From Patescibacteria group bacterium (GTDB lineage Bacteria; Patescibacteriota; Patescibacteriia; Veblenbacterales; UBA10138): a stretch of 64,000 nucleotides of DNA. The translations under genes were made by a program, and so were the position numbers. This document shows positions 8,314-61,389 of this stretch, piece after piece (position 1 is the first letter of the stretch; the number at the start of each line of letters is the position of its first letter). The stretch covers positions 75,147 to 139,146 of the forward strand of contig JAHITT010000006.1 of NCBI GenBank assembly GCA_018817715.1. The letters are read 5' to 3'. A model generated the notes under the pieces. The model was not told where the DNA came from. It worked only from the letters and a program-made list of their open reading frames with translations, and ran no database searches.

Positions 8314-8388
8314 TCTGGGGTAGTTCAAAGGTAGAACGCTGCGCTGTTAACGCAGATGTTGAAGGTTCGAGTCCTTCCCCCAGAGCCA
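8314..8388 (+). tRNA. tRNA-Asn (anticodon GTT), CCA encoded
   Basis: Acceptor tctgggg/ccccaga; anticodon arm ctgcg-CTGTTAA-cgcag; T arm gaagg-ttcgagt-ccttc; 3' gCCA. Confidence 0.9.
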
Positions 8389-8422
8389 CGCTCAGCGTGG
8401 CTATACCCGCGCTTAGCGCGGG
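8385..8422 (+). repeat. two tandem GC-rich 7-bp triloop hairpins
   Basis: gccacgc-tca-gcgtggc (overlaps the tRNA CCA end) and cccgcgc-tta-gcgcggg. Confidence 0.6.
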
Positions 8423-8443
8423 AGCCATATAGATACGTTGAGC

Positions 8444-8480
8444 AAAAAAAATCACCCGGTGTACGCTAGGTGATTTTTTT
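8444..8480. terminator. bidirectional intrinsic terminator
   Basis: A-run, atcacc ... ggtgat stem, then T7 run. Confidence 0.6.
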
Positions 8481-8481
8481 A

Positions 8482-8490
8482 TGCTAAAAT
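8482..8490 (+). promoter_or_regulatory. extended -10-like element TGcTAAAAT
   Basis: Ends 6 nt before the ATG at 8497, implying a leaderless or near-leaderless mRNA. Confidence 0.4.
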
Positions 8491-8496
8491 TAATTT

Positions 8497-8766
8497 ATGT
8501 ATTACACTTATGTTCTCCATTCTATCAAAGATGGACAACTATATACAGGCTATACTCCCAATCTAAAAAGTCGGATTAAATCCCACCAAGATGGCTATGT
8601 CACAGCAACAAAAAGTCGGCGTCCTCTAATATTAATATATTATGAATCATTTATAGTCGAATCTGACGCTAAACGAAGAGAACTTTTTCTAAAAGGTGGC
8701 AATGGTAAAAAAGAATTAGAAAAAATCTTAAAAGATTATTTCAAAAATAATCTCTGGCATAAATAA
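8497..8766 (+). CDS. GIY-YIG nuclease-domain protein (small stand-alone type)
   Basis: YYTYVL...GQLYTGYT..L..R...H motif series; 89 aa. Confidence 0.85.
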   Translation: MYYTYVLHSIKDGQLYTGYTPNLKSRIKSHQDGYVTATKSRRPLILIYYESFIVESDAKRRELFLKGGNGKKELEKILKDYFKNNLWHK

Positions 8767-8817
8767 AATGAACATCCCAAAAACAAAACCTTAAAAACTA
8801 TCTTATTTAATTTTTAA

Positions 8818-9015
8818 CTAATATCTATATCTATTTACGGAAAAAAACACGGTGACGGCATTGTCGGCGGCATATACGGCCTAGGGCTAATTGGTGCAGC
8901 AGTTTATTATATCCAGCAGGCTGACAGCTTTGTTGTAGGCCTTTTAGGCGTACTTAAGGCTATTATTTGGCCAGCCATGCTAATTTACAAATTAATGCAC
9001 TTTTTAGGCATGTAA
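8818..9015 (+). CDS. small two-TM membrane protein ORF with no canonical start codon (non-canonical start or pseudogene)
   Basis: Open frame ...YGKKHGDGIVGGIYGLGLIGAAVYYIQQADSFVVGLLGVLKAIIWPAMLIYKLMHFLGM*; no in-frame ATG, GTG or TTG before the last third; ATA and ATT codons lie near the 5' end. Confidence 0.35.
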   Translation, partial: LISISIYGKKHGDGIVGGIYGLGLIGAAVYYIQQADSFVVGLLGVLKAIIWPAMLIYKLMHFLGM

Positions 9016-9019
9016 TTTT

Positions 9020-9059
9020 ATAGGCTTATTCGTACGAATAAGCCTATGATATCCACAGG
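9020..9059 (-). repeat. inverted, diverged copy of the 40-bp palindrome-bearing repeat
   Basis: ATAGGCTTATTCGTACGAATAAGCCTAT (perfect 28-bp palindrome) followed by gatatccacagg; see the copies at 55747 and 61350. Confidence 0.85.
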
Positions 9060-9070
9060 GTATATAAATT

Positions 9071-9292
9071 ATGTTTTTTCAAAAAAAGTTATCCTTATCT
9101 TATTTAAGCAAAAATTTGTCTGTAGTGGTGGGTTTGGTTTTGGTCTGGCGGGGGATTTGGTACATACTGGACTGGTTGGACTATGAATTATGGGGTGGTT
9201 ACCACGGCTGGACAGCTTTGGGCGGAGTGGTGCTGGGTTTGTTGATTTTATATCTACCCGACAAAGACTTAAAAGAGATCCAAAAACTCTAA
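9071..9292 (+). CDS. small membrane protein, unknown function
   Basis: 73 aa with two hydrophobic segments; a TATATA/TATAAA box lies just upstream of the ATG. Confidence 0.4.
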   Translation: MFFQKKLSLSYLSKNLSVVVGLVLVWRGIWYILDWLDYELWGGYHGWTALGGVVLGLLILYLPDKDLKEIQKL

Positions 9293-11676: not shown

Positions 11677-12372
11677 GTGACTAACGGAAATAATTTAAAA
11701 AAAGGAGAGAATATACTCCAAGTAACTAAAGCTGAGCAATATCGCACGGTAGCTGAATTGTTTCAAAAAAGCCAACCGGATTCAGTTTTTTATACCTTGC
11801 TGACTTTGGCTGTTATTATTGTGTCTTCTGGTTTATTAATAAATAACAGCTTTATTGTAATTGGCGGTATGTTAGTAGCCCCAGTCTTAACTCCAGTCAT
11901 GCTGGCGGCTTTAGGCTTGGCTGTCGGACAAACCAAACCAGTTAAAGATGGTGCTTTACTTATTATCAGATCATCTTTGTTAATTGTCGTTGGCGGGCTG
12001 GTTATGTCCTTTGTCTTTGGCTCCAATCAGCATAATTTATTTTTTGAAAACACCATGCGCACGGCTATTCTTTACTTTATTGTGGCCATTGCTTCAGGTG
12101 TAGCCGCTACTTTAGCCTGGACCCGGAAAGAAATAATTGACGCTGTAACTGGTACAGCCATTGCTTTATCTTTGGTGCCACCACTGGTTTTAATAGGTAT
12201 ACGTTTAGGCAATTTAGATTTTGAATTAGCCCGTTATTATTTTTTGGTCTTTCTTTTTAACTTATTAGGCACTTTGGTTGGTAGTTTGGTAACTTTTACC
12301 ATGTTAAAATTCTATAAAAGCGAACAAAAAGTGGTTCAAGAGGTAAAAGAGCATACTAACCAAGCTGAATAA
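11677..12372 (+). CDS. multi-pass membrane protein (DUF389-like, tentative)
   Basis: GTG start; about six hydrophobic helices; family assignment from memory only. Confidence 0.45.
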   Translation: MTNGNNLKKGENILQVTKAEQYRTVAELFQKSQPDSVFYTLLTLAVIIVSSGLLINNSFIVIGGMLVAPVLTPVMLAALGLAVGQTKPVKDGALLIIRSSLLIVVGGLVMSFVFGSNQHNLFFENTMRTAILYFIVAIASGVAATLAWTRKEIIDAVTGTAIALSLVPPLVLIGIRLGNLDFELARYYFLVFLFNLLGTLVGSLVTFTMLKFYKSEQKVVQEVKEHTNQAE

Positions 12373-12378
12373 ATCTTT

Positions 12379-12411
12379 AAAAAAACCTCCTTGCTTTAAG
12401 GAGGTTTTTTT
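12379..12411. terminator. bidirectional intrinsic terminator
   Basis: aaaaaa-cctcctt-gcttt-aaggagg-ttttttt. Confidence 0.75.
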
Positions 12412-12442
12412 AATATATAACCAACTATGATAAACTTTAACT

Positions 12443-13858
12443 ATGCAAGTTACTTTTTATGGTGCCGCTCAAGAAGTCACCGGCTCTAAACATTTACTAT
12501 CTGTCGGTCAATATAAAATCTTATTAGATTGCGGTTCTTTTCAAGGACGCCGCCAAGAAACTTATCTCTTAAACAAAACCTTACCTTTTGATGCCAAACA
12601 GATAAATGCGGTTATTTTATCCCATGGTCATTTGGATCACAGTGGTTTATTGCCTTTACTAATTAAAAAAGGTTTTAAGGGTAAAATTTACGCTACCTCG
12701 GCAACCATTGATATCGTACGTTGGTTATTATTAGATTCAGCCAAAATTCAAGAGCAAGATGCCAAATACATGGGCCGACATAAAATTAAAGGCGCCAAAA
12801 GAGCTCAACCTCTTTACAATAAAACCGACGTAGATAAAACAATGAAACGTTTTATTATTGTGCCTTTTGTTTCGGCTACAGAACAATCTTGGCAAGAAAT
12901 TCTACCCGGCCTAAAAATAAAAATGTATCAAGCCGGACACATTTTAGGTTCAGCCGTTACAGTCATTCAAAGCCAACTAGCGGGCCAAACAACAACTCTA
13001 GCTTATAGCGGCGATTTAGGACGAGCTAATACACCTTTAATCGACGACCCTGAATATATTAAAGAATCAGTGGACGCCTTAATTTTAGAAAGCACCTATG
13101 GTAACCGCCGGCACGATCCTTTTAGTTTAGCTGTGGAAAAAATTAAAGAGGTTATCAACAGCACAGCCGCTAAACAAGGAAAAATAATCATACCGGCTTT
13201 TGCTTTGGGCCGCACCCAAGAAATAATCTACTTAATCCATAAATTAATGGACCAAGGCCAAGTACCTAATTTACCTATTTATGTAGATAGTCCTTTAGCT
13301 ACTCATTTAACTGAGGTTTTTAAAACTCACCGCGAACTTTATGATACTGAAGCTTGGCAGGATTTTTTACAAAGCGGTCGTTATCCTTTAGCTTTTAAAA
13401 ACCTAACCTACGTCAGTAAAGCAGAGGACTCTAAAAAACTTAATACTAAAAAAGGCAGTTTTATAGTAATTGCCGGCTCAGGCATGTGTGAAGCTGGCCG
13501 CGTCTTACATCATTTAATAAACGGCTTAGGGGATAATAATAATACTGTTTTAATAACGGGCTTTCAGGCGGCTAATACTTTAGGACGGCGTCTAGTAGAA
13601 GGCGCCAATAAAGCCAAATTATTTGGCCATGACTATCCGGTACGAGCCCGTATAGAAGTTTTGAACGAACTAAGCGCCCACGCTGACAGTCAAGATTTAG
13701 TTGATTATGCTACCAATACTCCAAACCTTAAAAAAATTTTCTTGGTTCATGGTGAATTTAATCAAGCTCAATCTTTACAAAATAAATTACGTTTAACTAA
13801 ACATAATTGGCAAGTTACTATACCGGCTCGCGGCGATACTTTTAAAATAAACTCTTAA
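12443..13858 (+). CDS. MBL-fold beta-CASP ribonuclease (RNase J/CPSF-like)
   Basis: HGHLDHSG metallo-beta-lactamase motif; later GD, ESTYG and SAHAD beta-CASP motifs. Confidence 0.8.
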   Translation: MQVTFYGAAQEVTGSKHLLSVGQYKILLDCGSFQGRRQETYLLNKTLPFDAKQINAVILSHGHLDHSGLLPLLIKKGFKGKIYATSATIDIVRWLLLDSAKIQEQDAKYMGRHKIKGAKRAQPLYNKTDVDKTMKRFIIVPFVSATEQSWQEILPGLKIKMYQAGHILGSAVTVIQSQLAGQTTTLAYSGDLGRANTPLIDDPEYIKESVDALILESTYGNRRHDPFSLAVEKIKEVINSTAAKQGKIIIPAFALGRTQEIIYLIHKLMDQGQVPNLPIYVDSPLATHLTEVFKTHRELYDTEAWQDFLQSGRYPLAFKNLTYVSKAEDSKKLNTKKGSFIVIAGSGMCEAGRVLHHLINGLGDNNNTVLITGFQAANTLGRRLVEGANKAKLFGHDYPVRARIEVLNELSAHADSQDLVDYATNTPNLKKIFLVHGEFNQAQSLQNKLRLTKHNWQVTIPARGDTFKINS

Positions 13859-13905
13859 CTTCGTACAGTGGGCAGAAAAAATTCGATATGTTATAATAAC
13901 AAAAG

Positions 13906-15162
13906 ATGAAAAAAAATAACTATCGTTTATTTGGTTGGGGATTAACCATAGCTCTACTATTGCAACCATCCATCAGCTTGGCCCAAAACCTCCCTCCAAA
14001 CGAAACAAATGATAATTCACCAGCGCCAGTTTTAACTAACCTAAGCAACAATCAATCATTAATTAAATCATCAACCGCCGTAACCGACGGCTCTTTAATG
14101 TTGTCTAACTTACGAACAGCCCGACAAGAATTGCAAGATAGATTAATTAAAAATAATAAACAACCCACCAAACCAACTTTTGTTACCAGTTATTCAGCAC
14201 CAGTGGAAATTACCTTAGCCTTGTGGCAAGAGGAAAATAATCAATTAATTTATTTATCAGCTTATAAAGCTGGCAATAAAATACAATTAAAAGAAAAATC
14301 CGATTATCAACTGGAAGTTACTTATAATAACGGAGTAAATTCTCAATACCGCGTTACCGGCCAGCCAACAGCTTATGTTTTAGCTGTTATTCATCCAATT
14401 TATCATTCTCAGGGCACAACCCAACGACCGTTTTACCGGTTGGAAAATGTAGTGTATGCGCCCTTTCACGATTATTTACTTAAACCAGCTTTAATAACGG
14501 CTGGCCAAGAATATTTTGCCAATAAAATAGCAGCCGTTTATGAAGAGTTAAGAGTTACTGGCGTTAGGTCTTATGCTTATCCTAAAGAATTACTAGCTGA
14601 TGTTTTAGATCCAGCTTTAGTTAAAGTAATTATTGCTATTGAACATGTTAGTGCCCATCAACTTTTAAATAACAATCATTATGATTATTTAAGCCAATTT
14701 TACGTAACTTTAGCTGGTAATGAACAGGCGGCTTATGCCTATGCTAAAAGTTCAGCTTCGGCCCGTGGTTTAGTCCAATTTATACCAACAACTTATCAAA
14801 GTTTAAGAAAATTGCAACCAGGCTTAACCTTACCAACTGACTTTGTACAGGGGATGACCGATCCTTATAATGCTATTAAAGCAGCCATTGGCTTAATGGA
14901 TTATAATTTAATTTTTATCCCAAGCAACCTTAGAACCAAAGAAAAATTAAAGGAAAAAAATATCGGCGCTCTTTTAGCCGCCATTTATAATGGGGGACCT
15001 AGCCGTTTAAGAAAGGCCTTGGCTGTCTGGGGAGAAAATTGGGACAAACTTCATTCCAAAAACAGTTTAAAATTGGAAACCGTAAACTACGTGGCTAAAT
15101 ATGAACTGGTCTACGACCATTTTGCTAGCGGTGAACAAATGTTCTTAGCCTTAAAACCTTAG
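13906..15162 (+). CDS. secreted protein with C-terminal lytic-transglycosylase-like domain
   Basis: Signal peptide; AIEHVS ... ARGLVQFIPTTY ... YNGGPSR resembles the SLT E-S / GLMQ / AYN.G motifs. Confidence 0.55.
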   Translation: MKKNNYRLFGWGLTIALLLQPSISLAQNLPPNETNDNSPAPVLTNLSNNQSLIKSSTAVTDGSLMLSNLRTARQELQDRLIKNNKQPTKPTFVTSYSAPVEITLALWQEENNQLIYLSAYKAGNKIQLKEKSDYQLEVTYNNGVNSQYRVTGQPTAYVLAVIHPIYHSQGTTQRPFYRLENVVYAPFHDYLLKPALITAGQEYFANKIAAVYEELRVTGVRSYAYPKELLADVLDPALVKVIIAIEHVSAHQLLNNNHYDYLSQFYVTLAGNEQAAYAYAKSSASARGLVQFIPTTYQSLRKLQPGLTLPTDFVQGMTDPYNAIKAAIGLMDYNLIFIPSNLRTKEKLKEKNIGALLAAIYNGGPSRLRKALAVWGENWDKLHSKNSLKLETVNYVAKYELVYDHFASGEQMFLALKP

Positions 15163-15212
15163 TCCTAAACAATTTAAATACTAACCAAGCCTTGCCTTAG
15201 GCTTAAAAAAAG

Positions 15213-15237
15213 AGTACAATCCTGTCGTACTTTTTTT
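15213..15237 (+). terminator. intrinsic terminator
   Basis: agtac-loop-gtact followed by a T7 run. Confidence 0.5.
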
Positions 15238-15289
15238 AATAACCTAATTTGATATTTTAGCTAATCTTAGGCAAATATATTAACCGGCT

Positions 15290-16891
15290 ATGTCCTATAC
15301 ACCCCTAACTCCCCTGAGCAGTGAACTAATACAACGATTAAGCGAATCTACTCCAACTGAAACAAACGATCAGCCAAAAATCCATGTTTCCGAAATTGCC
15401 AGTTTGCCAATTTTTATATATGAAAAAATAAGAAATTTCATTGATTATAAAGATGAATATTTGCTCCGCAAGAACGCTGTTAAAAGATTTTTAAGACGTT
15501 CTTTCTTATTGCCTAATTTTAAGAATTATAAATCAGAACAACTGGCTTTATCTTTAATTCGCGAATTAATCTTATCGCGTTATTTAAAAAATGATTCAGT
15601 ACTACAATCAAAGATAAAAGAGCTTTCGCCAGTTTTAGAAAAATATTATCTTTTATTACAACAAACCGACAATAATCAAGTTAAATATCCTAAATGGCGA
15701 GAAGCTGTCTTAGGATTAGCAGCTGTAGAATGTGATTCTTATTTAGTCTCGCCCCAAAAACGACATGCCTACATAGCCTTTGCTTTTAACCAGATAAAAG
15801 ACTTAATAAAATTACCAGCTGGTGAAGCAGATACTGAAACTATTAATGTTCAAATACTCTTAAACACCCAAAGAATATTAGAAAGAGCTGATCAGGATAT
15901 TTTGGGTTATTATCTGTTAGTACATTATTATCCTAATTGGTTTAACTTAAAAACTACTGAAGCCGCCAACTGGTTGTCACCACAGCTTAACAGTGTTTTA
16001 CACAATCTAAAATTTATAAGTGAACAATCCTTGGGTAAAAGAGTAATGCCAACAGTGCGTAAATTACTAATACCCATAGTCGTTCTGCAACAAATGCTCC
16101 ACGAAACCGACAAACCCTTAAGAGATTTATTGAGTGATCCCACTAAACTCAACGAACAAATTAAAAAAACTTATCACGACTTTTGGAATAAAACAAGAAA
16201 AAAAATACGCAACAAAGGTTTCCATGCTATCTTTTACATATTTATAACTAAAATGGTTCTAGCGCTTTTGGTAGAATTCCCTTATGAAAAAATTTTTTTA
16301 GGACAAGTTCATTATTTATCCCTAGGCATAAATTTACTTTTTCCTCCTTTATTAATGGGGTTAATTACCATTTTAATAAAATCACCAGGTAAACAAAATG
16401 AAACCAGGGTAGCCGAAGCGGTTAGTGAGCTTATCTACGGTCGTGATACCGGTTTTTACAAGATTAAAGAACTTAAACCACTCAAAAATAATTTCTGGGG
16501 TAAATTCTTTTACGCCTTACTTTATTTAATTACTATAATCAGCTCCTTTGGCTTGGTCATAACTTTCTTAATTAACCTAAATTTTAATATATTATCTGGT
16601 GGATTTTTTATATTATTCATAAGCCTTGTTAGTTTTTTTGGTTTATCTTTGCGCCAACAAGCAAGGCAGTTACGTTTGATTAACGAAAAAGATACTATGT
16701 TGGCTTTTGCTTTGGACTTTTTTAGTCTACCAGTGGTAACTTTTGGTAAATGGCTATCCACAACTTTCGATAAATTAAATGTTTTCGTCTTTATTCTTGA
16801 TTTTTTATTTGAACTACCGTTCAAAACTCTGCTAAAATTAATTGAGCAATGGTTCCAATTTTTACGAGAAAAAAGAGATCAAATGTATTAA
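15290..16891 (+). CDS. large hypothetical protein with C-terminal multi-TM domain
   Basis: 533 aa; soluble N-terminal half and at least four hydrophobic helices; no motif recognised. Confidence 0.4.
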   Translation: MSYTPLTPLSSELIQRLSESTPTETNDQPKIHVSEIASLPIFIYEKIRNFIDYKDEYLLRKNAVKRFLRRSFLLPNFKNYKSEQLALSLIRELILSRYLKNDSVLQSKIKELSPVLEKYYLLLQQTDNNQVKYPKWREAVLGLAAVECDSYLVSPQKRHAYIAFAFNQIKDLIKLPAGEADTETINVQILLNTQRILERADQDILGYYLLVHYYPNWFNLKTTEAANWLSPQLNSVLHNLKFISEQSLGKRVMPTVRKLLIPIVVLQQMLHETDKPLRDLLSDPTKLNEQIKKTYHDFWNKTRKKIRNKGFHAIFYIFITKMVLALLVEFPYEKIFLGQVHYLSLGINLLFPPLLMGLITILIKSPGKQNETRVAEAVSELIYGRDTGFYKIKELKPLKNNFWGKFFYALLYLITIISSFGLVITFLINLNFNILSGGFFILFISLVSFFGLSLRQQARQLRLINEKDTMLAFALDFFSLPVVTFGKWLSTTFDKLNVFVFILDFLFELPFKTLLKLIEQWFQFLREKRDQMY

Positions 16892-16898
16892 TTCAAAA

Positions 16899-17558
16899 AT
16901 GAAAAAACTTACTTTATTTTATTTTTTATTTATCGGTTTAATTTTAGCTGGCTGTTCTCTTAAAGGGCCAGACTGGCAAGCTAATAAACAAGACTATCAA
17001 CAAGTCGGACTAACTAATCCCAATAACTATCCAACTAGTAACGCTACTAATATGACTAAACCTCAAACTCCACCTGACCTAAACTATACCTCGGCCACCT
17101 TAGTTACCAATTTAGGGGAGATGACTATTACTTTTTATCCTGAACCTAAGCAAACAGTGGCTAATTTTCTAAAATTAGCGGCGGAGGGGTTTTACGACGG
17201 GGTTAAATTCCATCGTGTTATAAAAGACTTCATGGCCCAAACAGGGGACCCTAATTCTAAAGACGATGATTGGTCTAACGATGGGCGGGGCGGACCAGGT
17301 TATACCTTTGCTGACGAAATAAATGAACACCCTTTAGTACGCGGTTCCGTAGCTATGGCTAATGCTGGGCCCAACACTAACGGCAGTCAATTTTTTATTG
17401 TAACTGCCGAAGCCACGCCCTGGCTAGACGGCAAACACACTAATTTTGGCTATATTAGCGAAGGTTATGCCCTTTTAAATAAGATTGAAGATATACCCAG
17501 AAATGCTGACGATCATCCCTTAACCGATATTACTATAAAGAGCATAAAACTTAAATAA
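16899..17558 (+). CDS. ppiB: cyclophilin-type peptidyl-prolyl cis-trans isomerase, lipoprotein
   Basis: Lipobox LILAGCS after the ATG at 16899 (the 16842 start overlaps the upstream gene); FHRVIKDFMAQTGD, GSQFFI, LDGKHTNFG. Confidence 0.85.
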   Translation: MKKLTLFYFLFIGLILAGCSLKGPDWQANKQDYQQVGLTNPNNYPTSNATNMTKPQTPPDLNYTSATLVTNLGEMTITFYPEPKQTVANFLKLAAEGFYDGVKFHRVIKDFMAQTGDPNSKDDDWSNDGRGGPGYTFADEINEHPLVRGSVAMANAGPNTNGSQFFIVTAEATPWLDGKHTNFGYISEGYALLNKIEDIPRNADDHPLTDITIKSIKLK

Positions 17559-17578
17559 TATATCTGGAATTCAATAAT

Positions 17579-18019
17579 ATGAACAAAATTTTAAAAAGTA
17601 TTTCTTGTTTATCCTGCTTGGGCACTTTATTCGCTTTAACCGTTACTCTTAGGCAATATATTGCACCAGCTAATGAACCAGGTATATTTTCTTGTGTGGG
17701 TTTAAAGATATTCGGTTTATCTCCTTGCCCTTTTGGTTTAGGTTTTTTTGCTTTGCTACTTTTAAGTAGTTTGCTGGCCTTACGCCAAAAATCTAATTGG
17801 TTCAGTTCTCCTAAAACGATTAGATTTTTTGCTTGGGCAGGCACTTTATTTTCTGGTTGGGTAGCTTGGCGAGAAATTGGCCTACCAATTTTAATCAGGG
17901 GTTTGTCGAATTACTGGCAAACTTTTTCCCTAGCCCAAGTGCCAGCTTGCGTTTGGGGGTTCTTTGTCTTTTTGGCGGTCGCCATTCTTAGTCTTTATTA
18001 TAAAAACGAAAAAAAATAA
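17579..18019 (+). CDS. small four-TM cysteine-rich membrane protein (possible DsbB/VKOR-like thiol oxidoreductase; speculative)
   Basis: CLSC (CxxC) plus three more Cys near membrane boundaries; no firm family match. Confidence 0.3.
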   Translation: MNKILKSISCLSCLGTLFALTVTLRQYIAPANEPGIFSCVGLKIFGLSPCPFGLGFFALLLLSSLLALRQKSNWFSSPKTIRFFAWAGTLFSGWVAWREIGLPILIRGLSNYWQTFSLAQVPACVWGFFVFLAVAILSLYYKNEKK

Positions 18020-18022
18020 TTC

Positions 18023-19531
18023 ATGTTGGCTTGGCTGCTTAATAAATTTAAAAAAGAAACAGTTTACCGGATATTTGAAATAATACCCGGCCTATTAGTC
18101 TGGTCTACTTTAATCGGAGCAGTTATTTTGTCTTTTATAAAACCGCTGTGGGCCATTTATATAATTATTGTTTTTGACCTTTATTGGTTACTGCGAGTAG
18201 CTTATTTGTTAATTTACATGATTGGTTCCTGGAAAACTTATAAACAAACTGTTAGTCAAAATTGGCGACTAAAACTAACTGCTTTACCGGCTAGCCAAAA
18301 TATTCATCACTTAATCTTTTTACCAACCTATCAAGAATCTTTAGAAGTTTTACGAGCTTCTTTAACATCGTTAGTTAATGTGGACTATCCTTTAGATAAA
18401 TTTATTGTCGTTTTAGCTGGTGAAGCTAGAGATAAAGATAATTTTTTAGAATCAGCCAATTTAATAAAACAAGAATACGGTCACCGTTTTGGACATTTTT
18501 TGATAACTCTTCATCCTAGTGACATAGTGGGGGAAATAGCCGGTAAGGGTTCTAATATTCACTGGGCTGGTCACCAAGCTAAAAAATTAATCGACCAATT
18601 AGGGCTAGATTATCCTAATATAATAGTGTCCACTTTTGATATTGATTCTTGCGCCCACCCGCAATATTTTTCTTATTTAACTTATGTTTATTTAACTCAC
18701 CCCGATCCTTTACATTCCAGCTACCAGCCAGTAGCCATTTATAACAACAATATCTGGCAATCACCGGCTGTTAGCCGAATTGTAGCTAATTCCACAACTT
18801 TTTGGTTATTAACCGATTTGGCCAGACCAGAACGTTTGTTTACTTTTTCTTCGCATTCCATGCCTTTTAAGGCTTTGGTAGATGTTGGTTTTTGGCAAAA
18901 TGACATAGTTACCGAAGATTCTAGAATATTCTTACAATGTTTTGTCCGTTACAATGGCAACTATCAAGTAACGCCCTTGTATATGCCTATTTCTATGGAT
19001 ACGGTCTATGCCGGTTCCTTGTGGCGTAGTTTGGTTAATCAATATAAACAACAAAGACGTTGGGCCTATGGTGTAGAAAATTTTCCTTATATGGCTTGGC
19101 ATTTTTGGCGCTCCAAAACAATCCCTTTTAACAAAAAAACTCGTTATTTATGGAATCAATTAGAGGGAGTTTATTCTTGGGCCACCGCTCCTTTAATTAT
19201 TTTTATACTTGGCCGCTTACCTTTAATGATGGCTGATAATGAAGTTAAAACCACTATTTTAGCTCATAACGCCCCAGTAGTCCTAGGTTGGCTAATGACT
19301 TTAGCTATGATTGGTTTAATATTCAGTGCCGCTTTATCCACCATGCTTTTACCAGCCCGACCCAAGGATAAATCCATCTTCATGTACATACCAATGATTT
19401 TGCAATGGATACTCTTTCCAATTATTATGATTATTTTTGGCGCTATACCAGCCACCGACGCTCAAACCAGATTAATGCTGGGTAAATATTTAGGTTTTTG
19501 GGTAACAGAAAAAAAACGAGCCACAACTTAA
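18023..19531 (+). CDS. membrane GT2-family processive beta-glycosyltransferase (cellulose/chitin-synthase-like)
   Basis: FDIDS, TEDSRIF and QQRRWAYG (QxxRW) motifs flanked by TM helices. Confidence 0.7.
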   Translation: MLAWLLNKFKKETVYRIFEIIPGLLVWSTLIGAVILSFIKPLWAIYIIIVFDLYWLLRVAYLLIYMIGSWKTYKQTVSQNWRLKLTALPASQNIHHLIFLPTYQESLEVLRASLTSLVNVDYPLDKFIVVLAGEARDKDNFLESANLIKQEYGHRFGHFLITLHPSDIVGEIAGKGSNIHWAGHQAKKLIDQLGLDYPNIIVSTFDIDSCAHPQYFSYLTYVYLTHPDPLHSSYQPVAIYNNNIWQSPAVSRIVANSTTFWLLTDLARPERLFTFSSHSMPFKALVDVGFWQNDIVTEDSRIFLQCFVRYNGNYQVTPLYMPISMDTVYAGSLWRSLVNQYKQQRRWAYGVENFPYMAWHFWRSKTIPFNKKTRYLWNQLEGVYSWATAPLIIFILGRLPLMMADNEVKTTILAHNAPVVLGWLMTLAMIGLIFSAALSTMLLPARPKDKSIFMYIPMILQWILFPIIMIIFGAIPATDAQTRLMLGKYLGFWVTEKKRATT

Positions 19532-19541
19532 CCAATTTAAA

Positions 19542-55746: not shown

Positions 55747-55786
55747 CCTGTGGATAACATAGGCTAATTCGTACGAATTAGCCTAT
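55747..55786 (+). repeat. 40-bp repeat, left copy (TGTGGATAA motif plus 28-bp perfect palindrome)
   Basis: cctgtggataacATAGGCTAATTCGTACGAATTAGCCTAT; identical 40/40 to 61350-61389. Confidence 0.95.
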
Positions 55787-55793: not shown

Positions 55794-56615
55794 TTATTTA
55801 AAGGGATGAGACTTTTTAAACTCTTCTAGGACTCCAGATTTTTTGGCTATGGACAACAATTTTTTATGCAAATGTTTGTTACTTAATAAAGCGCCTTTAA
55901 TAAACCCGTTATACTTTTGTTCCTTCCCCCATAAATCTGTTACCTTACCACCAGCTTCCTCCACCACTATTTTAGCCGCCGCAATGTCATGGGCTAATTT
56001 ACCATTAAATATACAACCATCAAACCCGCCAGTAGCTATTAAAGAAGCCGCTTCAGCTACCGAATAAACCTCGGGCGTGCGAGCGTTTTGTTTATGAAGT
56101 AAAACAGAAGCGGACGAACTTTTCCAACCGGTTTTTATTAAAGCGCCAGCCAAAATTTTTTTATTGCTTACTGATAACTTAAAATTCTTTTCCACCAAAT
56201 AAGCGCCCTTGCCTTTTTCGGCCAGTACTGTGCGCCTGGCTAAAGGATTACACAGCACTCCAGCCACTGGCCGACCATCTATAACAATAGCGGCCGAAAA
56301 AACAAACAACGGCGCGCCAATAATAAACATATGCGTGCCATCTATGGGGTCCACCACAAATAATTTACGACCAATTGTTTTAGAACTTATTTCTTCACCC
56401 AAGACATCAAAATCCGGGTAAGCCTTGGCCACCTCGCGCAGAACCATTTGGTTAACAGCAATGTCGGCCTTGGTTACGGCATCCAATCCCCAATCAGCCT
56501 TTTTATTTTTAATAGTATAACTTACCCCACAAGGATTGTAATACTTAAGCATTAGCCGACTAGCTTTGCTGGATAAGTTTAATAGGAATTTTGTTTGCTT
56601 GCTAAATTTTTTCAT
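55794..56615 (-). CDS. inositol-monophosphatase-family phosphatase (SuhB/CysQ-like)
   Basis: GEE, VVDPIDGT and HDIAAAKIVVEEAGG motifs. Confidence 0.85.
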   Translation of the reverse strand: MKKFSKQTKFLLNLSSKASRLMLKYYNPCGVSYTIKNKKADWGLDAVTKADIAVNQMVLREVAKAYPDFDVLGEEISSKTIGRKLFVVDPIDGTHMFIIGAPLFVFSAAIVIDGRPVAGVLCNPLARRTVLAEKGKGAYLVEKNFKLSVSNKKILAGALIKTGWKSSSASVLLHKQNARTPEVYSVAEAASLIATGGFDGCIFNGKLAHDIAAAKIVVEEAGGKVTDLWGKEQKYNGFIKGALLSNKHLHKKLLSIAKKSGVLEEFKKSHPFK

Positions 56616-56687
56616 AAAGACAAATTAAGATTGCCATTCAAAACTATCTCCCAACCAACCGCTTTGGATAACAAGTTTGTAGTAAAA

Positions 56688-59429
56688 TTATTCTTTATCA
56701 AACAATGTTGGCTTCTGTCCGTTTGTAAATTCTTCGGTTGCCAATTCCTTGTGGCGTAATTCGTCATATCCCTCAAAATCGCTCACGCTCGCAATTTTAA
56801 CTGCCTTGAACCCTCTTTTTTCCATTGCCTTGTCCACGAGGAAAAAAGTTTGAACGCCGCCCTCTTTTTCTAAAAGTTTTAGGGCTTTCTTGCGGTCATC
56901 AATTTGTTTCGCTTCGGCAAGATGCTTGCCTTTAACATCAACGACTATCCACTTGCCTTCGATAAACGCAAGAAAGTCCGGATAAAATGGTGCTGGCTTT
57001 ACTTCAACGGGATACTCAAAAGGATCATTTCTAACCCAAAAACTTTTCTTTTTCTTGTCCAATGAACAAAGATGCTCCAAAGCGTCAGCGACCCATTTTT
57101 CGGGCGGCGAATCAAACTTTACAAACGGACGAGCAGAAAATTTATATCCTTCAACAATAATACCTTTCTGCTGTAAGTGCGAGGACATGGGTTGATGAGA
57201 AGGAATCAAGTTGAGAGTAAGTCCGTCTCGTTTTCTAACAGTAATTTTGCCATCCACAAAAATATCTTTTACATTTTTCTTTCGGAATATAAATTGTCTC
57301 TTGAACATCAATTCAAATGCGCCTTGTCCGTAAAATTCAATAATACTCTTTTTTAGAGCTTTCAAGGCGCGTTTATAGTCCACCGCGTAGGCGGTATCAA
57401 CCTGTATTCCGGCACCAATAATGTTTTCTATCAGCTTCTTTGCAGTATCAAATGAGTTATTTCCGATAAATGAGCCAGTTTGTTCTATAAAATCTAACGC
57501 CCAGCGCGCAATTTCGTTTTTAGGCAAAGCTATTGTTCTGCGGGTAGTCGCTGGCTTGTCAGTCTGCATGGCGATTTCATCAGTTGTAATTTCCGCATAG
57601 TCAATCATTGCCAAAACTTCTGGCTTTAGAACTTTGTCACCCTTGGAAAGCCCGCACACCTCATCAACAAACGCTTTAACGCTTAACGATTGATCTTTTA
57701 GCGCGTCTTCAAAACTTTTACCGGTTGCAGTTGGTTTGATCTGCAAAATTGGAATTTCGTAGTCATCAATAATTTTTCTGTTTACTTTATTCTCGCGGTC
57801 TTCTTCCTCGGTTGGAATTTCAACATTTGCCGGCGACAATGCTAATTTTTGCCGAATTTCTTCTACGATTTGATCAAAGCGGCGGCCCCTCTCGCAAATA
57901 ACATGTAAAATTTCGCTCTGCTCTTTTAGTTCATCGCCCAAAATATCAAACTCCCGTTTTTCTTTGTAAAGTCGGAGACCACGCCCGATAAGTTGGGCCG
58001 CCGCGAGACCAACTTTCTCAACAGTATCGCCCAAAACAACGATTGTATAAAAATTGTCGTAATCAACGCCCTCGGTGAATATACGGACTTGGTTTACAAC
58101 TTCGGCATTATTGTCGTCGAGCGATTGATAATCTGTCCAGACCTCTTCCTCGCTTTTATTTTCGCTATGAATGGTGAAAACAGATTTTGCCACTCGCGAC
58201 AATTTTTTTACTAATTCTGATTTGTTTTTTGGTATATTCGTACGAACAATTTTAGCAATATCGGTTCCTTCACGATTTACTTGTTCCAACACATCATCAA
58301 GCTCGCCCGCAACCGAATCAGGCCAATTTTTGAGATAATCATCAATCGCGTCCGCGTGTTTTATAGTTCTTGCTTTGGTAAGCAACATCGCTTTTTTCAC
58401 TGGCGCGTTAGCGGCGGCAAGCGACTCGGTTTTTAGCAAATGAATCAACATGCCCCAAACCAATTTCTGCTTATCACTATCGGTCACTTCGTCTGAAATT
58501 TTCTCGTCGCTTGTTCCGCAACCAACCGCAAAAATCCTCTTGCCATATCCCTCTCCAATATATCTTTGCATTGGATACTTGTATAAGTTGTCTTGTCCAA
58601 AACTCTCGCTACCACCTTTTTCAAGTGATGTTGCGGTAAATTCCAGCACAGCGCTCGGCAAGAGCTCAAAAATTGCTTCTGCGGTTTTCTTTTGCTGGTA
58701 GTGGTGTGCTTCATCAGAAATAATGACTGGCCGCTTTTCGCGTAAAAATTCCACAAACGATATGGTGTGTTGCCCGCTTTTATCACGCCACAATGATTCT
58801 TCAAGCGGCCGGCGAACATATGGTGTCCCTTTCATTGTATCTTCACCGTCTTTTTTGTTCGATGAAGCCGCTTTATCGTAAAACTTCTGCATGTTGAAAA
58901 CATAGAAAGAAACGTCGCGATCATCTTCGTAATTGCAGGTTTTATCACGATAAGAATTTCCCGTAACCAAGTTGTAGGTTAAATTCCAACCGTCGCCAAA
59001 AATGCTTTTTACTGCGCGCGGCGTAAAGTTTTCTATCGTCTTATCAAACAAAATTGTGTTCGGAGTGAGAATAAGAAAATCTCTAAAACCTCGGTGGTAT
59101 AAGTCCAAAATCGCCGCGCCCATCAAAAGGGTTTTGCCGGAACCGGTCGCCATTTCAAAACCGACCTTATTCCACCCAACAATCTTATCGTCATCGTCTT
59201 TTCCTTGTTGAAGTGTTTTCTGCTTTAAGCTCCGGCTGTCAAACTTGTCTTTCCAAAAAAGTTGAAATGCGCTCAATGCTTCTATTTGATACGGGCGCAA
59301 GGCAAATTTAAGCAAATGCTGTATCTTTTCGTAATTCTCAATCGTTTTTGGCGACGGCGAACCGACGGCAATTTTGTATTGCTGGTCTTGGCTCACTAAA
59401 TCGTAAAATGTTTGCGGTTTTGTTCTCAT
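56688..59429 (-). CDS. res: Type III restriction enzyme, Res subunit (SF2 helicase plus C-terminal PD-(D/E)XK nuclease)
   Basis: LRPYQ, MATGSGKT, DEAHH, TAT and QLIGRGLR helicase motifs; C-terminal YPDFLAF...VVDVKGK; 4-nt ATGA overlap with the mod stop. Confidence 0.85.
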   Translation of the reverse strand: MRTKPQTFYDLVSQDQQYKIAVGSPSPKTIENYEKIQHLLKFALRPYQIEALSAFQLFWKDKFDSRSLKQKTLQQGKDDDDKIVGWNKVGFEMATGSGKTLLMGAAILDLYHRGFRDFLILTPNTILFDKTIENFTPRAVKSIFGDGWNLTYNLVTGNSYRDKTCNYEDDRDVSFYVFNMQKFYDKAASSNKKDGEDTMKGTPYVRRPLEESLWRDKSGQHTISFVEFLREKRPVIISDEAHHYQQKKTAEAIFELLPSAVLEFTATSLEKGGSESFGQDNLYKYPMQRYIGEGYGKRIFAVGCGTSDEKISDEVTDSDKQKLVWGMLIHLLKTESLAAANAPVKKAMLLTKARTIKHADAIDDYLKNWPDSVAGELDDVLEQVNREGTDIAKIVRTNIPKNKSELVKKLSRVAKSVFTIHSENKSEEEVWTDYQSLDDNNAEVVNQVRIFTEGVDYDNFYTIVVLGDTVEKVGLAAAQLIGRGLRLYKEKREFDILGDELKEQSEILHVICERGRRFDQIVEEIRQKLALSPANVEIPTEEEDRENKVNRKIIDDYEIPILQIKPTATGKSFEDALKDQSLSVKAFVDEVCGLSKGDKVLKPEVLAMIDYAEITTDEIAMQTDKPATTRRTIALPKNEIARWALDFIEQTGSFIGNNSFDTAKKLIENIIGAGIQVDTAYAVDYKRALKALKKSIIEFYGQGAFELMFKRQFIFRKKNVKDIFVDGKITVRKRDGLTLNLIPSHQPMSSHLQQKGIIVEGYKFSARPFVKFDSPPEKWVADALEHLCSLDKKKKSFWVRNDPFEYPVEVKPAPFYPDFLAFIEGKWIVVDVKGKHLAEAKQIDDRKKALKLLEKEGGVQTFFLVDKAMEKRGFKAVKIASVSDFEGYDELRHKELATEEFTNGQKPTLFDKE

Positions 59430-61149
59430 AGTAATTTATATTCTCTCAAAATTGCTGCCGGTATCTTTTTTACCATAACGCGATCGTCCAACGAATCTGG
59501 CGGCACGGAAACGGCGACATTGGTAAAAATTGTTAGGTGTTTGAATTTTTCTCTTTCCAATTCGGCAATAATTTTTTCATATAGATCAGCCGTTAGTGTT
59601 TTTACTTCTCTTGAAGCAAAAGAAATGGCGAAATGATAGCGTGCAGATTGGTGCTTGCCGAGATACATACCTTCCTTCTCCACCCACTTCGTCTCTATCG
59701 GTCTGTATTGGAAATGTAAAAATACTGCTTCGGCCATTTCTGCTGCTTTCAGCGACCAATTCATATCTTGTTCATGTATCACGCTCTCGCCTAGTTGGTA
59801 GTATTTGAACCCTCCGCCACCTTTCCAGTTCACATCCTTGCTTATCCCTGTTTGATCTTTCCCAGAGATGATTTTTTGTAGGCGTGGCATGATGAGTTCG
59901 TCAGCGTGACGTCCCATTTCTACCATAATCCAACGACGTTCCATTTTGTGCGCCACGGCTCCCGTGGTCCCAGAACCAGCAAAAGAGTCAAAAACCAAAT
60001 CATTTTTTCAGTCGAGATTGAGATAATACGCTGTATAAGTTTTTCAGGTTTTTTTGATTTGGGAAAGTCAACCCCTCCTTCGCCCGCAATTCCTTCCCAA
60101 GAAATATCGTCCCAAATATCTGTTATCGCCTCTACTGGCAATAGATTTCCATCCACTTCCTGTAATCTTTCTCTATAAAATAGGACTCTCTCGCCCCCAA
60201 TGAATAAATAGTCCATATCATCATTTGGATGTCTAACAATTTTATTCTTGAGTTTGCGCGACTTTTCAAGAGTCTTAATCCTCTTGAGACGAGCTCCACC
60301 AGTAACCGACGCCGTACGAAAGACTCTCTCGGCATTTTTAATTGCAAAAACTCCTCTTTCAGCATTAAATTCATCCTCTCTTAATTCTTTTTTTGCGTCC
60401 CTTGCATTTGAAAATCCAAGCTCTAGCGCCACAACTTCATCAATATTCTTCCATGACCATTTATCTTCTGGTTTTTTTATATCGTCAAAAACCCAACGAT
60501 ATGCTTGATCATATCCCTTTTCAATAAATGTCTTTTTGAATTTCAGTTGAGCAGAGTCTTTTGCGAAAATCAAAAGGTTATTTGCTGATTTGAAAAGCTG
60601 ATTTGAAGTGTGCTTAAAACCAAAAGGACTATTTGCTTTTATAGTCACAGTATTTAGATAATTCTGTCTGCCAAATGTCTCATCAAGCAAAACACGGCAA
60701 TACGCGACTTCTTTATCATCCAAATGTACGAAAAGAATCCCGTCCTTTCTCAAGAGTTTGCGTAGCAGAAACAACCTGTCGCGCATCATTGTTAGCCATT
60801 CAGAATGTTCAAGATTGTCGTCATAGTGTTTGAAGGCGTTCCCTGTATTAAATGGAGGGTCAATATAAATACATTTCACTTTTTCCTTATCCGGTCGGCC
60901 CTTAAACATCTCAACCAAACTTCGCAAAACTAACAAGTTATCGCCCTTGATAAGCATGTTATCGCCTGTCTTGTCGCCAAAGTCTTTGGCAAAGCGTAAA
61001 ATGCGCGGTTCGGCAACGCGAATATCATTTTTCGGCACCCAAACCGGCCGGACACCCTTGCCCTCCTTTTCGTCAATTTCGTAGTAAAGCGAAAGGTCTT
61101 TGTTTATCCAATCCAGCCGTAACGAGCCCTTGTAACTTCTTTTTTGCAT
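59426..61149 (-). pseudogene. mod: Type III DNA methyltransferase Mod (beta-class N6/N4), interrupted by a frameshift in an A6 run
   Basis: The 5' ORF carries motif IV IYIDPPFNTG; the 3' ORF carries motif I DSFAGSGTTG. The frames join if the run at 60003-60008 has 7 A, giving ..ISISTEKNDLVFDSFAGSG.. Confidence 0.8.
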
Positions 61150-61349: not shown

Positions 61350-61389
61350 CCTGTGGATAACATAGGCTAATTCGTACGAATTAGCCTAT
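61350..61389 (+). repeat. 40-bp repeat, right copy
   Basis: Identical to 55747-55786, in the same orientation. Confidence 0.95.

What the first reader, a model, noticed from the sequence alone, without database searches (positions are those of the whole stretch)
9020..9059. A third, inverted copy of the repeat carries a compensatory double substitution that keeps the palindrome perfect
Seen in sequence: 9020-9047 reads ATAGGCTTATTCGTACGAATAAGCCTAT. Compared with the 55.7 kb and 61.3 kb copies, arm position 8 changes A to T in the left arm, and the mirrored position changes in the right arm. The 28-mer therefore remains a perfect palindrome. The adjoining 12-mer is on the opposite side and strand (gatatccacagg, one mismatch). 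The copy lies between a start-less small ORF and a gene whose -10-like box (TATATA, 9061-9066) starts 2 nt after the repeat. Inference: symmetric co-variation argues for selection on base pairing (DNA cruciform or RNA hairpin) or on a symmetric dimer-binding site, not for a neutral relic.
Basis: partly seen in the sequence, partly recalled or inferred. Interest (0 to 1): 0.5.

Follow-up and report, generated by a model that had tools for sequence, protein, structure and literature searches.

The report
Conserved palindrome tied to ArsR-like regulator
The 28-base palindrome is real and belongs to a large, apparently undescribed family in ultra-small groundwater bacteria (Parcubacteria) that brackets a small ArsR-type DNA-binding protein gene, so it is most likely that protein's binding site, not an RNA hairpin.

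Summary
There are three copies of a 28-bp perfect palindrome, at 9020, 55759 and 61362. Copy 1 carries a mirrored A>T/T>A change and has the 12-mer on the other side.

A metagenome scan found 69 more loci with unrelated flanks and 34-56% GC. In 24 of 26 non-redundant cases a small (~86 aa) ArsR/SmtB-family gene has the palindrome on both sides: one copy before its promoter region, one at or over its stop codon. All 7 loci retrieved through the protein alone show the same layout.

Arms co-vary far more than chance (71 double-change cells against 25.8 expected; 0/500 shuffles). Wobble-type changes are not enriched and there is no U-tract.

The T/A variant recurs in several other loci, so it was probably inherited, not compensated in place.

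Solo copies lie next to unrelated genes, between convergent genes, and in frame inside YchF, DinB, DegT-type and HemK/PrmC-like methyltransferase genes. No recombinase or transposase is associated.

Best reading: binding site of the ArsR-like homodimer. The window holds three solo sites and no regulator gene. How the sites spread and what they do biologically remain open.

The parts
9020..9047 (.). Palindrome copy 1 (T/A variant at arm position 8/21), a solo site
   Evidence: It is a perfect 28-bp palindrome. The same variant is seen in L023, L041, L048, L065 and L069.
9048..9059 (+). One-sided 12-mer GATATCCACAGG (near DnaA-box ATATCCACA); spacer between the site and the -10-like box
   Evidence: It is shared only by the three window copies and is not found next to family members elsewhere.
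9061..9066 (+). -10-like TATATA, 13 nt after the palindrome and 4 nt before the ATG
   Evidence: A comparable layout (site, then a TATAAT-like box about 6-29 nt on, then a short or absent leader) is seen upstream of the ArsR-like genes.
9071..9292 (+). 73-aa membrane-protein ORF downstream of copy 1; candidate controlled gene
55747..55758 (+). 12-mer CCTGTGGATAAC (contains a perfect DnaA-box complement TGTGGATAA)
55759..55786 (.). Palindrome copy 2 (family consensus), 7 nt after the IMPase stop, between convergent genes
55794..61149 (-). Block bracketed by copies 2 and 3: IMPase-like gene (55794-56615), type III res (56688-59429), type III mod (59426-61149, frameshifted)
   Evidence: L014 has IMPase-site-ArsR-site.
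61350..61361 (+). 12-mer CCTGTGGATAAC
61362..61389 (.). Palindrome copy 3 (family consensus). It lies downstream of dnaX and tRNA-Gln and about 200 nt upstream of mod.
   Evidence: The dnaX-site-ArsR-site order is found in L032, L058/L073 and L084.

Best explanation
The 28-bp palindrome is a solo copy of the cognate DNA site of a small (~86 aa) ArsR/SmtB-family winged-helix protein that is widespread in Parcubacteria/Paceibacteria. This protein has no metal-sensing residues.

Shown:
- The palindrome family exists in many genomes.
- It brackets that gene on both sides almost without exception.
- Its two arms evolve symmetrically at the DNA level.

Inferred:
- The protein binds as a homodimer, one recognition helix (LSF[RK]STS[RK]HL) per half-site.
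- At its own gene, the upstream site lies where the -35 region would be, so binding there would autoregulate the gene.
- The second site, at the stop codon, would act as a boundary, roadblock or looping partner.
- In this window, copy 1 sits in the same position relative to a -10-like box and probably controls the 73-aa membrane-protein gene.
- Copies 2 and 3 bracket the IMPase/type III R-M block in the same 'site before, site after' layout.
- The mirrored A>T/T>A change of copy 1 is an inherited variant at the least constrained half-site position. Symmetry is kept because both half-sites face the same protein, and perhaps also through arm-to-arm template switching.
For: - The three copies are far beyond chance: 0.00 expected.
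- The scan left the inner four positions of each arm (6-9 and their mirrors) free. It found 69 loci and 71 sites; 42 have the identical 28-mer, and the flanks are unrelated.
- An ArsR-like gene lies next to the site in 22 of the 69 loci. When 7 or fewer mismatches are allowed, a partner site appears on the other side of the gene.
- 24 of 26 non-redundant regulator genes have a site on both sides.
- All 7 loci retrieved through the protein alone have flanking sites. In about 130 kb of those loci, no family-like site lies more than about 700 nt from the gene.
- The protein is ArsR/SmtB: Pfam HTH_20/HTH_5 above threshold; NCBIfam NF033788 at 63 bits against a cut-off of 55; best PDB matches are HlyU, CzrA, PagR, YgaV and NolR.
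- The recognition helix is nearly invariant.
- Proteins with ...SKHL helices go with diverged outer half-sites.
- Symmetry: 87.7% of cells paired against 75.5% in shuffles; 71 double-change cells against 25.8; 0/500 shuffles reach the observed values. Own permutation test: 24 against 3.7 and 70 against 31.
- No excess of wobble pairs.
- Orthologous solo sites stay intact while their flanks diverge to 70-88% identity.
Against: - No regulator gene lies in the 64-kb window, and the rest of the genome could not be fetched.
- Genes next to solo sites share no function.
- Sites show no fixed phasing to -10 boxes overall.
- Some sites lie between convergent genes (window copy 2, L024, L074).
- At least five lie in frame inside intact housekeeping genes. 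Sites within genes and between convergent genes are not where promoter operators normally lie.
- The window has three perfect sites and no degenerate ones. This looks more like copying than like a regulon.
- Flank positions +-1 to +-4 are complementary without being conserved. Half-site recognition alone does not predict this.
- Binding itself is untested.
Confidence: 0.55

Rival explanations
1. The palindrome is a dispersed, copy-and-paste (selfish or domesticated) element comparable to REP or Rickettsia RPE elements. Under this reading site-ArsR-site is the 'master' unit and the solo copies, including the three in the window, are its scattered offspring. Any binding by the ArsR-like protein would serve the element, not gene regulation.
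For: - Identical 28-mers sit in unrelated contexts and GC backgrounds.
- In-frame copies encoding (D)RLIRTNKPM or SLIRANRRM occur inside YchF, DinB, DegT-type and HemK/PrmC-like methyltransferase genes. The DinB copy lies in an inserted loop.
- The gene flanked by two repeats resembles the REP-RAYT-REP layout.
- Site-gene-site-gene-site arrays occur in L014, L060/L076 and L082.
- The window copies share 12-30 nt of one-sided flank.
- The window has perfect copies or none.
- Extended-palindrome subfamilies recur: CTT..AAG, ACC..GGT, ATC..GAT.
Against: - No transposase or recombinase is enriched among 221 neighbouring proteins.
- There are no target-site duplications.
- Copy number is low, about 1 exact site per 100-200 kb of long contigs.
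- The ArsR unit sits in conserved synteny next to dnaX or serS across genomes whose proteins are only 38-57% identical. This points to vertical inheritance.
- An 86-aa winged-helix protein has no catalytic domain.
- In YchF and DegT the palindrome replaces native residues with little or no change in length (plus knowledge of the DegT family).
Confidence: 0.25
2. The palindromes are architectural or segregation sites in the manner of parS/ParB, matS/MatP or AspA. The ArsR-like protein would nucleate at a few conserved palindromes on the chromosome, its own gene included, irrespective of promoters.
For: - There are few, near-perfect, deeply conserved sites per genome.
- Sites are tolerated inside coding genes and at convergent junctions.
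- Neighbouring genes share no functional theme.
- The binder gene adjoins its own sites, as do parB and aspA.
- AspA, an ArsR-like centromere binder, is a detectable homolog at E=4e-4.
Against: - No ParA/ParB-like partner gene was seen next to the unit in the annotated regulator loci.
- Clustering of sites on the chromosome could not be assessed.
- GC skew does not change at the sites.
- The evidence is purely by analogy.
Confidence: 0.1
3. The palindromes are recombination sites for a Xer-like tyrosine recombinase (28 bp = 11-6-11). Under this reading they delimit exchangeable cassettes, such as the R-M block in the window, like dif/pdif modules or IMEX elements.
For: - The 11-6-11 geometry is there.
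- Direct copies with shared flank bracket the IMPase/R-M block.
- At the dnaX locus the space after the site is filled by the ArsR gene in L032, L058 and L084, but by R-M genes in the window.
- Arrays of site-gene-site exist.
- R-M islands abut the ArsR unit in L076, L078, L081 and L082.
Against: - The central region and arms are perfectly symmetric, so recombination would have no directionality.
- GC skew has the same sign on both sides of the site in most loci.
- No tyrosine recombinase gene was found among the neighbours.
- The ArsR gene never appears inverted relative to its neighbours.
- This reading cannot explain the in-frame copies inside genes.
Confidence: 0.05
4. The palindrome acts as an RNA hairpin: a terminator, processing site or stabiliser of transcripts.
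For: - It forms a stable 12-13-bp stem as RNA on either strand (-17 to -25 kcal/mol, z about -4.4 to -5.5).
- Many copies lie just after stop codons.
- Flanks often extend the stem.
Against: - There is no U-tract.
- The primary sequence is conserved across 34-56% GC.
- The loop region is itself palindromic.
- G-U-compatible single changes are not enriched (10 of 84 non-Watson-Crick cells).
- Upstream copies lie before the -10 box and so would not be transcribed from that promoter.
Confidence: 0.05

Closest known systems
ArsR/SmtB-family autorepressors with dyad operators (12-2-12 type; e.g. SmtB, CzrA, and the non-metal members HlyU, PagR, NolR)
   Same: - Small winged-helix homodimer family.
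- Dyad-symmetric site of about 26-30 bp.
- A site immediately upstream of the regulator's own gene, overlapping the promoter region.
   Different: - No metal- or thiol-sensing residues.
- A second site at or over the stop codon of the gene in almost every case.
- A 28-bp site that is often a perfect palindrome, held across a class-level clade.
- Solo sites in non-promoter positions and inside genes.
REP elements with their RAYT gene (REPtrons)
   Same: - Short palindromes flank a single gene.
- They are also scattered as solos in intergenic regions, often at gene ends.
   Different: - The flanked gene is a winged-helix binder, not a HUH/Y1 transposase.
- The palindromes are perfect and lack the GTAG head.
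- There are a few copies per genome, not tens to hundreds.
Rickettsia palindromic elements (RPE)
   Same: The palindromic sequence is found in frame inside intact housekeeping genes as well as between genes.
   Different: - 28 bp against roughly 100-150 bp (from memory).
- In some genes it replaces residues and does not add them.
- It is linked to a dedicated binder gene.
parS/ParB, and AspA with its palindromic centromere
   Same: - A few near-perfect palindromes conserved over large evolutionary distances.
- They are tolerated in coding DNA.
- They lie next to the binder's own gene.
   Different: - No ParB-family protein.
- No ParA partner seen next to the regulator gene.
- Chromosomal clustering is unknown.
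CIRCE/HrcA
   Same: A highly conserved, nearly perfect inverted repeat bound by a dedicated repressor and conserved across many lineages.
   Different: - CIRCE is 9-9-9 and restricted to heat-shock operon promoters.
- Here there is no conserved regulon, although one conserved solo site does lie inside an hrcA-grpE-dnaK cluster.

Membership tests
ArsR/SmtB repressor-operator pair | The regulator belongs to the ArsR/SmtB winged-helix family | tested here: met
   Pfam HTH_20 at 33.4 bits (cut-off 27) and HTH_5 at 29.9 bits (cut-off 22). NCBIfam NF033788 at 63.1 bits (cut-off 55). PDB HlyU at 2e-16.
ArsR/SmtB repressor-operator pair | Dyad-symmetric operator adjacent to or overlapping the promoter of the regulator's own operon | tested here: met
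   In related loci the upstream site ends roughly 0-57 nt before the predicted start codon, with a -10-like box about 6-29 nt after the site.
ArsR/SmtB repressor-operator pair | Regulator gene present near the site in this window | tested here: not met
   tblastn and an HMM search of all six frames of the window find nothing. The rest of the genome was not retrievable.
ArsR/SmtB repressor-operator pair | Metal- or thiol-sensing ligand residues (alpha3N or alpha5 sites) | tested here: not met
   The alignment A1 has no conserved Cys, and the only conserved His is in the recognition helix. The protein resembles the non-metal members (HlyU, PagR, NolR).
ArsR/SmtB repressor-operator pair | Direct, specific protein-DNA binding | not testable with these tools
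   Needs EMSA, footprinting or DAP-seq.
REP/RAYT (REPtron) | The gene flanked by the palindromes encodes a HUH/Y1 transposase | tested here: not met
   The flanked gene is an 86-aa ArsR-type HTH protein. The most frequent Pfam families among 221 neighbouring proteins include no transposase or recombinase.
REP/RAYT (REPtron) | Tens to hundreds of copies per genome | tested here: not met
   There are 3 copies in 64 kb with no degenerate copies. Contigs of 41-230 kb each hold one exact-pattern locus.
dif / Xer recombination site | 28 bp with two 11-bp arms and a 6-bp centre | tested here: met
   ATAGGCTAATT-CGTACG-AATTAGCCTAT. This is geometry only.
dif / Xer recombination site | Located at the replication terminus (GC-skew switch), typically one site per chromosome | tested here: not met
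   The skew has the same sign on both sides in most of 27 sites with at least 1.5 kb of flank. There are three copies in this window.
dif / Xer recombination site | Asymmetric centre or arms that give directionality | tested here: not met
   The site is a perfect palindrome including its centre.
Intrinsic (rho-independent) terminator | G+C-rich stem followed by a U-tract | tested here: not met
   No T-run follows on either strand at any of the three copies. The scan lists no terminator made by the palindrome itself.
Structured RNA with covarying helix | Pairing is kept through G-U intermediates, and the sequence is free to vary | tested here: not met
   10 one-sided standard pairs against 74 unpaired cells. 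The inner 4 base pairs and the centre are (near-)invariant, although this is partly imposed by the search pattern. There is no Rfam hit.
RPE-like in-frame palindromic element | The same element occurs in frame inside intact protein-coding genes | tested here: met
   In related loci only: YchF (L051), HemK/PrmC-like methyltransferase (L059), DegT-type aminotransferase (L066 and L017), DinB (L079). None of the three window copies is inside a gene.
oriC / DnaA-box cluster | A cluster of several DnaA boxes with an AT-rich unwinding element near dnaA | tested here: not met
   There is a single box per copy. Window-wide, 26 boxes with at most 1 mismatch against 16.9+-4.7 expected. No dnaA gene adjoins any of the three copies.

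The most novel reading that the evidence does not exclude
The palindrome and the ArsR-like gene may form an undescribed, Parcubacteria-wide 'palindrome plus dedicated binder' system whose sites are actively kept perfect and are propagated around the chromosome, even in frame inside housekeeping genes. Orthologous DegT genes carry two different, each near-perfect, versions at the same codons.

Under this reading it is either a REP/RAYT-like system that works without a HUH enzyme, or a parS-like chromosome-organising system built on an ArsR fold. It would not be an ordinary operator.
Probability: 0.3. Interest if true: 0.8.

Novelty: new variant of a known kind. Interest (0 to 1): 0.6.

Why it matters
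Almost nothing is known about gene regulation or chromosome organisation in CPR/Patescibacteria, and I found no paper describing this motif or this regulator.

This is a protein-site pair conserved across many Parcubacteria lineages. The site is 28 bp long and almost always brackets the protein's gene. That gives a directly testable entry point: one small protein, one oligonucleotide.

The in-frame copies inside YchF, DinB and DegT genes, and the concerted change of both arms between orthologs, raise a general question. How are perfect palindromes created and maintained in streamlined genomes?

Tried and rejected
- **dif/terminus site:** rejected, because GC skew does not switch at the sites.
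- **Link to the neighbouring GIY-YIG gene:** the recurrent ~86-aa neighbour is not GIY-YIG.
- **Genome-contig scan requiring the 12-mer:** only 6 chance hits in coding DNA. The source genome seems absent or masked.
- **Viral contigs:** no family members.
- **Exact look-up of window proteins:** not on record. A 100% match names 'Patescibacteria group bacterium', contig 531 kb.
- **Conserved regulon:** genes next to solo sites are functionally unrelated.
- **Fixed spacing to -10 boxes:** flat distribution.
- **Target-site duplications:** none.
- **Recombinase or transposase enrichment:** none among 221 neighbouring proteins.
- **DnaA-box link:** weak (11 against about 3.9 expected near sites, three of them from this window). 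The window-wide count is not significant.
- **Rfam:** only the two tRNAs.
- **Synteny check of copy 1 in relatives:** the contigs were too short (L085) or lacked the site (L086). Only L069 shares the site plus about 40 nt of flank.
- **Literature searches** for the sequence string and for ArsR plus CPR: nothing relevant.

Full report
**Observation**

The window contains exactly three matches to the 28-mer: 9020-9047, 55759-55786 and 61362-61389. None is expected by chance.
- Copy 1 reads ATAGGCTTATTCGTACGAATAAGCCTAT. Copies 2 and 3 read ATAGGCTAATTCGTACGAATTAGCCTAT. The only differences are arm position 8 and its mirror, so all three are perfect palindromes.
- CCTGTGGATAAC precedes copies 2 and 3. 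Its reverse complement with one mismatch (GATATCCACAGG) follows copy 1.
- TATATA lies at 9061-9066 and an ATG at 9071.
- The upstream ORF (8839-9015) lacks a start codon until its last 12 codons.

I add two points. Copies 2 and 3 share about 64 nt at 86% identity. They also bracket, as direct repeats, an IMPase-like gene plus a type III res/mod pair.

**The family**

A scan of species-representative genomes that required part of the 12-mer gave only six chance hits in coding DNA.

A metagenome scan used ATAGGNNNNTTCGTACGAANNNNCCTAT, leaving the inner four positions of each arm (6-9 and their mirrors) free. It returned 69 loci with 71 sites, from Rifle, Hainich and other groundwater-type samples.
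- 42 sites are identical to the window consensus.
- The flanks are unrelated and do not contain the 12-mer.
- GC content of the loci ranges from 34 to 56%.
- Contigs of 41-230 kb each contributed a single locus, so exact sites are rare per genome. This is not REP-like abundance.

**What the palindrome travels with**

Clustering all ORFs near the sites gave one dominant family: an ~86-aa protein in 19 loci (20 genes). An HMM search extended this to 22 genes.
- It is an ArsR/SmtB winged-helix protein: Pfam HTH_20 and HTH_5 above threshold; NCBIfam NF033788 at 63 bits against a cut-off of 55; nearest solved structures HlyU, Lmo1102, CzrA, PagR, YgaV and NolR.
- It has no conserved Cys, and its recognition helix LSF[RK]STS[RK]HL is almost invariant.
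- It has about 1,700 homologs at E<1e-8. Those that carry names are from Taylor-, Kaiser-, Lipton- and Colwellbacteria and Paceibacterota.

Allowing up to 7 mismatches to the consensus revealed a second palindrome on the other side of nearly every such gene.
- In the non-redundant set, 24 of 26 genes have a site on both sides. The two exceptions are a contig end and L070.
- The upstream site ends roughly 0-57 nt before the predicted start codon. It is usually followed within about 6-29 nt by a TATAAT-like box and a very short leader.
- The downstream site lies 3-50 nt after the stop, or overlaps it so that the TAA of CTAATTCG is the stop codon.

To remove the bias of having selected loci by the DNA pattern, I fetched seven loci through the protein alone: P0002, P0070, P0101, P0058, P0091, P0042 and P0010.
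- All seven show flanking sites. These range from two perfect consensus copies (L084) to diverged versions and a second class, ATTCGCnnATTCGCGCGAATnnGCGAAT.
- In about 130 kb of these loci, no family-like site lies more than about 700 nt from the regulator gene.

The shared core is AATTCG-NN-CGAATT. Proteins whose helix ends ...SKHL go with diverged outer half-sites. This is suggestive, but not perfect, co-variation between protein and site.

**Is the mirrored substitution evidence for pairing?**

Over 103 unique sites, 66 are perfect palindromes.
- At the positions left free by the search pattern there are 24 symmetric changes against 3.7 expected from shuffling the arms, and 16 asymmetric cells.
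- In sites not selected by the pattern there are 70 symmetric changes against 31 expected, and 89 asymmetric.
- The formal count on 50 distinct sequences gives 87.7% paired against 75.5% in shuffles, and 71 double-change cells against 25.8. No shuffle out of 500 reaches the observed values, and slid controls fall to about 30-40% paired.

Arm symmetry is therefore real. Four further points qualify it.
Counting sites, 23 are symmetric and 26 asymmetric.
- Single-side G-U-compatible changes are not enriched: 10 against 74 unpaired cells. This argues against RNA pairing.
- The T/A form is not unique to the window. It occurs in L023, L041 (both sites), L048, L065 and L069. L069 also shares about 40 nt of flank with copy 1. 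In one orthologous set (DUF3467 in the dnaK cluster), L023 has T/A where L046 and L055 have A/T. Copy 1 therefore most likely inherited an existing symmetric variant.
- The canonical palindrome has stop codons in all three frames on both strands. Copies lying inside genes need AAG where the consensus has TAG, and this accounts for some of the asymmetric CTAA/TAAG variants.

Positions +-1 to +-4 outside the 28-mer are also complementary beyond what composition predicts (68/101 against 37.9 at +-1). Recurrent forms are CTT..AAG, ACC..GGT and ATC..GAT.

**Facts that do not fit a plain operator**

- Genes adjacent to solo sites are functionally unrelated: SerRS, ClpP, GNAT, asparaginase, CYTH, DUF192, DUF763, a PD-(D/E)XK nuclease, TspO and others.
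- There is no preferred distance to -10-like hexamers over all sites.
- Several sites lie between convergent genes: window copy 2, L024 and L074.
- At least five lie in frame inside intact genes:
  - YchF (L051, DRLIRTNKPMV)
  - a HemK/PrmC-like methyltransferase (L059)
  - a DegT-type aminotransferase (L066); its ortholog in L017 carries a different, equally palindromic version encoding YSHIRTNMRI
  - DinB (L079, SLIRANRRM, within a loop absent from E. coli DinB and from the L078 homolog)
- The window itself has three perfect sites and no degenerate ones.

These points favour some form of copying or active homogenisation of the palindrome. However, I found no target-site duplications, no transposase or recombinase enrichment among 221 neighbouring proteins and no family members on viral contigs. 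The regulator unit also sits in conserved synteny across genomes whose proteins are only 38-57% identical: dnaX-site-ArsR-site, site-ArsR-site-serS and IMPase-site-ArsR-site. Orthologous solo sites stay intact while their flanks drift to 70-88% identity, so at least some solos are under constraint.

**The window in this light**

No member of the regulator family is encoded in the 64 kb. The source is a 531-kb contig of a 'Patescibacteria group bacterium' that I could not retrieve.
- Copy 1 has the same geometry as the sites upstream of the regulator genes: palindrome, 13 nt, -10-like box, start codon. It lies in front of a 73-aa membrane-protein ORF and a thioredoxin/CcdA-like gene.
- Copy 3 lies after dnaX and tRNA-Gln, a locus where relatives carry a family site flanking the ArsR-like gene.
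- Copy 2 lies 7 nt after the IMPase-like gene. L014 has a site in the same place, followed there by the ArsR gene.

The window therefore looks like that conserved neighbourhood, with the regulator gene missing and a type III R-M pair sitting between two sites. The 12-mer (with its perfect DnaA-box 9-mer in copies 2 and 3) is shared only within this genome. Its role is unexplained. DnaA-box-like 9-mers are only weakly enriched near family sites.

**Verdict**

The best-supported statement is that the palindrome is the binding site of the ArsR-like homodimer (confidence about 0.55). It is autoregulatory at the regulator's own gene. In the window it is present as three solo sites.

The rivals are, in order:
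- a REP/RPE-like dispersed element, which could be true at the same time as binding;
- a parS-like architectural role;
- Xer-type cassette boundaries;
- an RNA hairpin.

Xer-type boundaries are disfavoured by the perfect symmetry, the skew result and the absence of a recombinase. The RNA hairpin is disfavoured by the missing U-tract, the lack of wobble excess and the conservation of primary sequence.

The single double substitution, however, is weak evidence in itself, and the 12-mer is not part of the family.

I found no published description of the motif or of this regulator in CPR.

Noticed in passing
window 59426-61149 (-), A-tract near 60003-60008: The type III mod gene is split into two overlapping ORFs by a -1 frameshift in an A6 run (ACTGAAAAAATGATTTGG). 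A7 would restore ...STEKNDLVFDSFAGSGTTG. This is either phase variation or an assembly error.
   Followed up: partly
window 61155-61287 (-): A short ORF and an adjacent frame encode ...NPTIEIVKI / KIAKALSVTLDDLIK*. It resembles, by eye, the C-terminal half of an Xre-type HTH, ending just before the mod start codon, and may be the relic of an R-M controller (C) protein. Pfam gave no hit on the 30-aa fragment.
   Followed up: partly
window 8314-9015: tRNA-Asn is followed by a free-standing 89-aa GIY-YIG ORF (8497-8766) and then a start-less membrane-protein ORF fragment (8839-9015). This suggests an insertion that truncated a gene.
   Followed up: no
window ~12000-20000: Gene orientation flips from + to - at about 19.5 kb. 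GC skew goes from about 0 (1-12 kb) to -0.1 to -0.26 (20-64 kb). This could be a terminus-like or inversion boundary. The three 12-mers all point towards it.
   Followed up: no
window 55749-55757, 61352-61360, 9049-9057; L041, L063, L069, L024: The 12-mer contains a perfect DnaA-box 9-mer (TTATCCACA) in copies 2 and 3. DnaA-box-like 9-mers occur 11 times within 70 nt of family sites, against about 3.9 expected. This is weak and is partly driven by the window itself.
   Followed up: partly
all consensus copies, e.g. window 55759-55786: The canonical palindrome carries stop codons in all three frames on both strands (TAG at 2-4, TAA at 7-9, TAG at 21-23). The T/A variant of copy 1 removes two of them. 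The ArsR-like genes often use the TAA at 7-9 as their own stop codon.
   Followed up: partly
L046:1827, L075:585, L014:6237, L017:7669, L072:1690, L082:7160/7568: A second palindrome class, ATTCGCnnATTCG(C/T)(G/A)CGAATnnGCGAAT, co-occurs on the same contigs as the consensus class. Each arm looks like a tandem ATTCGC submotif. This may mean two paralogous binders (L060/L076 has two regulator paralogs).
   Followed up: partly
L076:1691-8882, L078:3642-9408, L081:6131-9025, L082:2447-5397: Restriction-modification and other defence genes lie directly upstream of the ArsR-like unit in four of seven protein-selected loci, as in the window. The unit may border variable defence islands.
   Followed up: no
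L061:177-4731, L055, L040, L046, L023: A conserved solo site sits inside an hrcA-grpE-...-DUF3467-CYTH-dnaK-dnaJ cluster in several related contigs.
   Followed up: no
L018:435-450, L021, L026, L057, L016: A subset of solo sites from different samples shares a one-sided flank, GTTATT(A/G)TGCGACA. It occupies the same position as the window's GTTATCCACAGG. In L057 and L018 a canonical TTGACA/TTGATA-N16-17-TATAAT promoter follows.
   Followed up: partly
L013:1-110: The contig starts with a perfect fold-back centred on the palindrome. This is probably an assembly artefact caused by the palindrome.
   Followed up: no
window 55683-55707: A separate hairpin (CCAAGTTGTTT-AAA-AAACAACTTGG followed by T-rich sequence, read by eye) ends the 235-aa gene upstream of copy 2. 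Copy 2 is therefore not needed as that gene's terminator.
   Followed up: no
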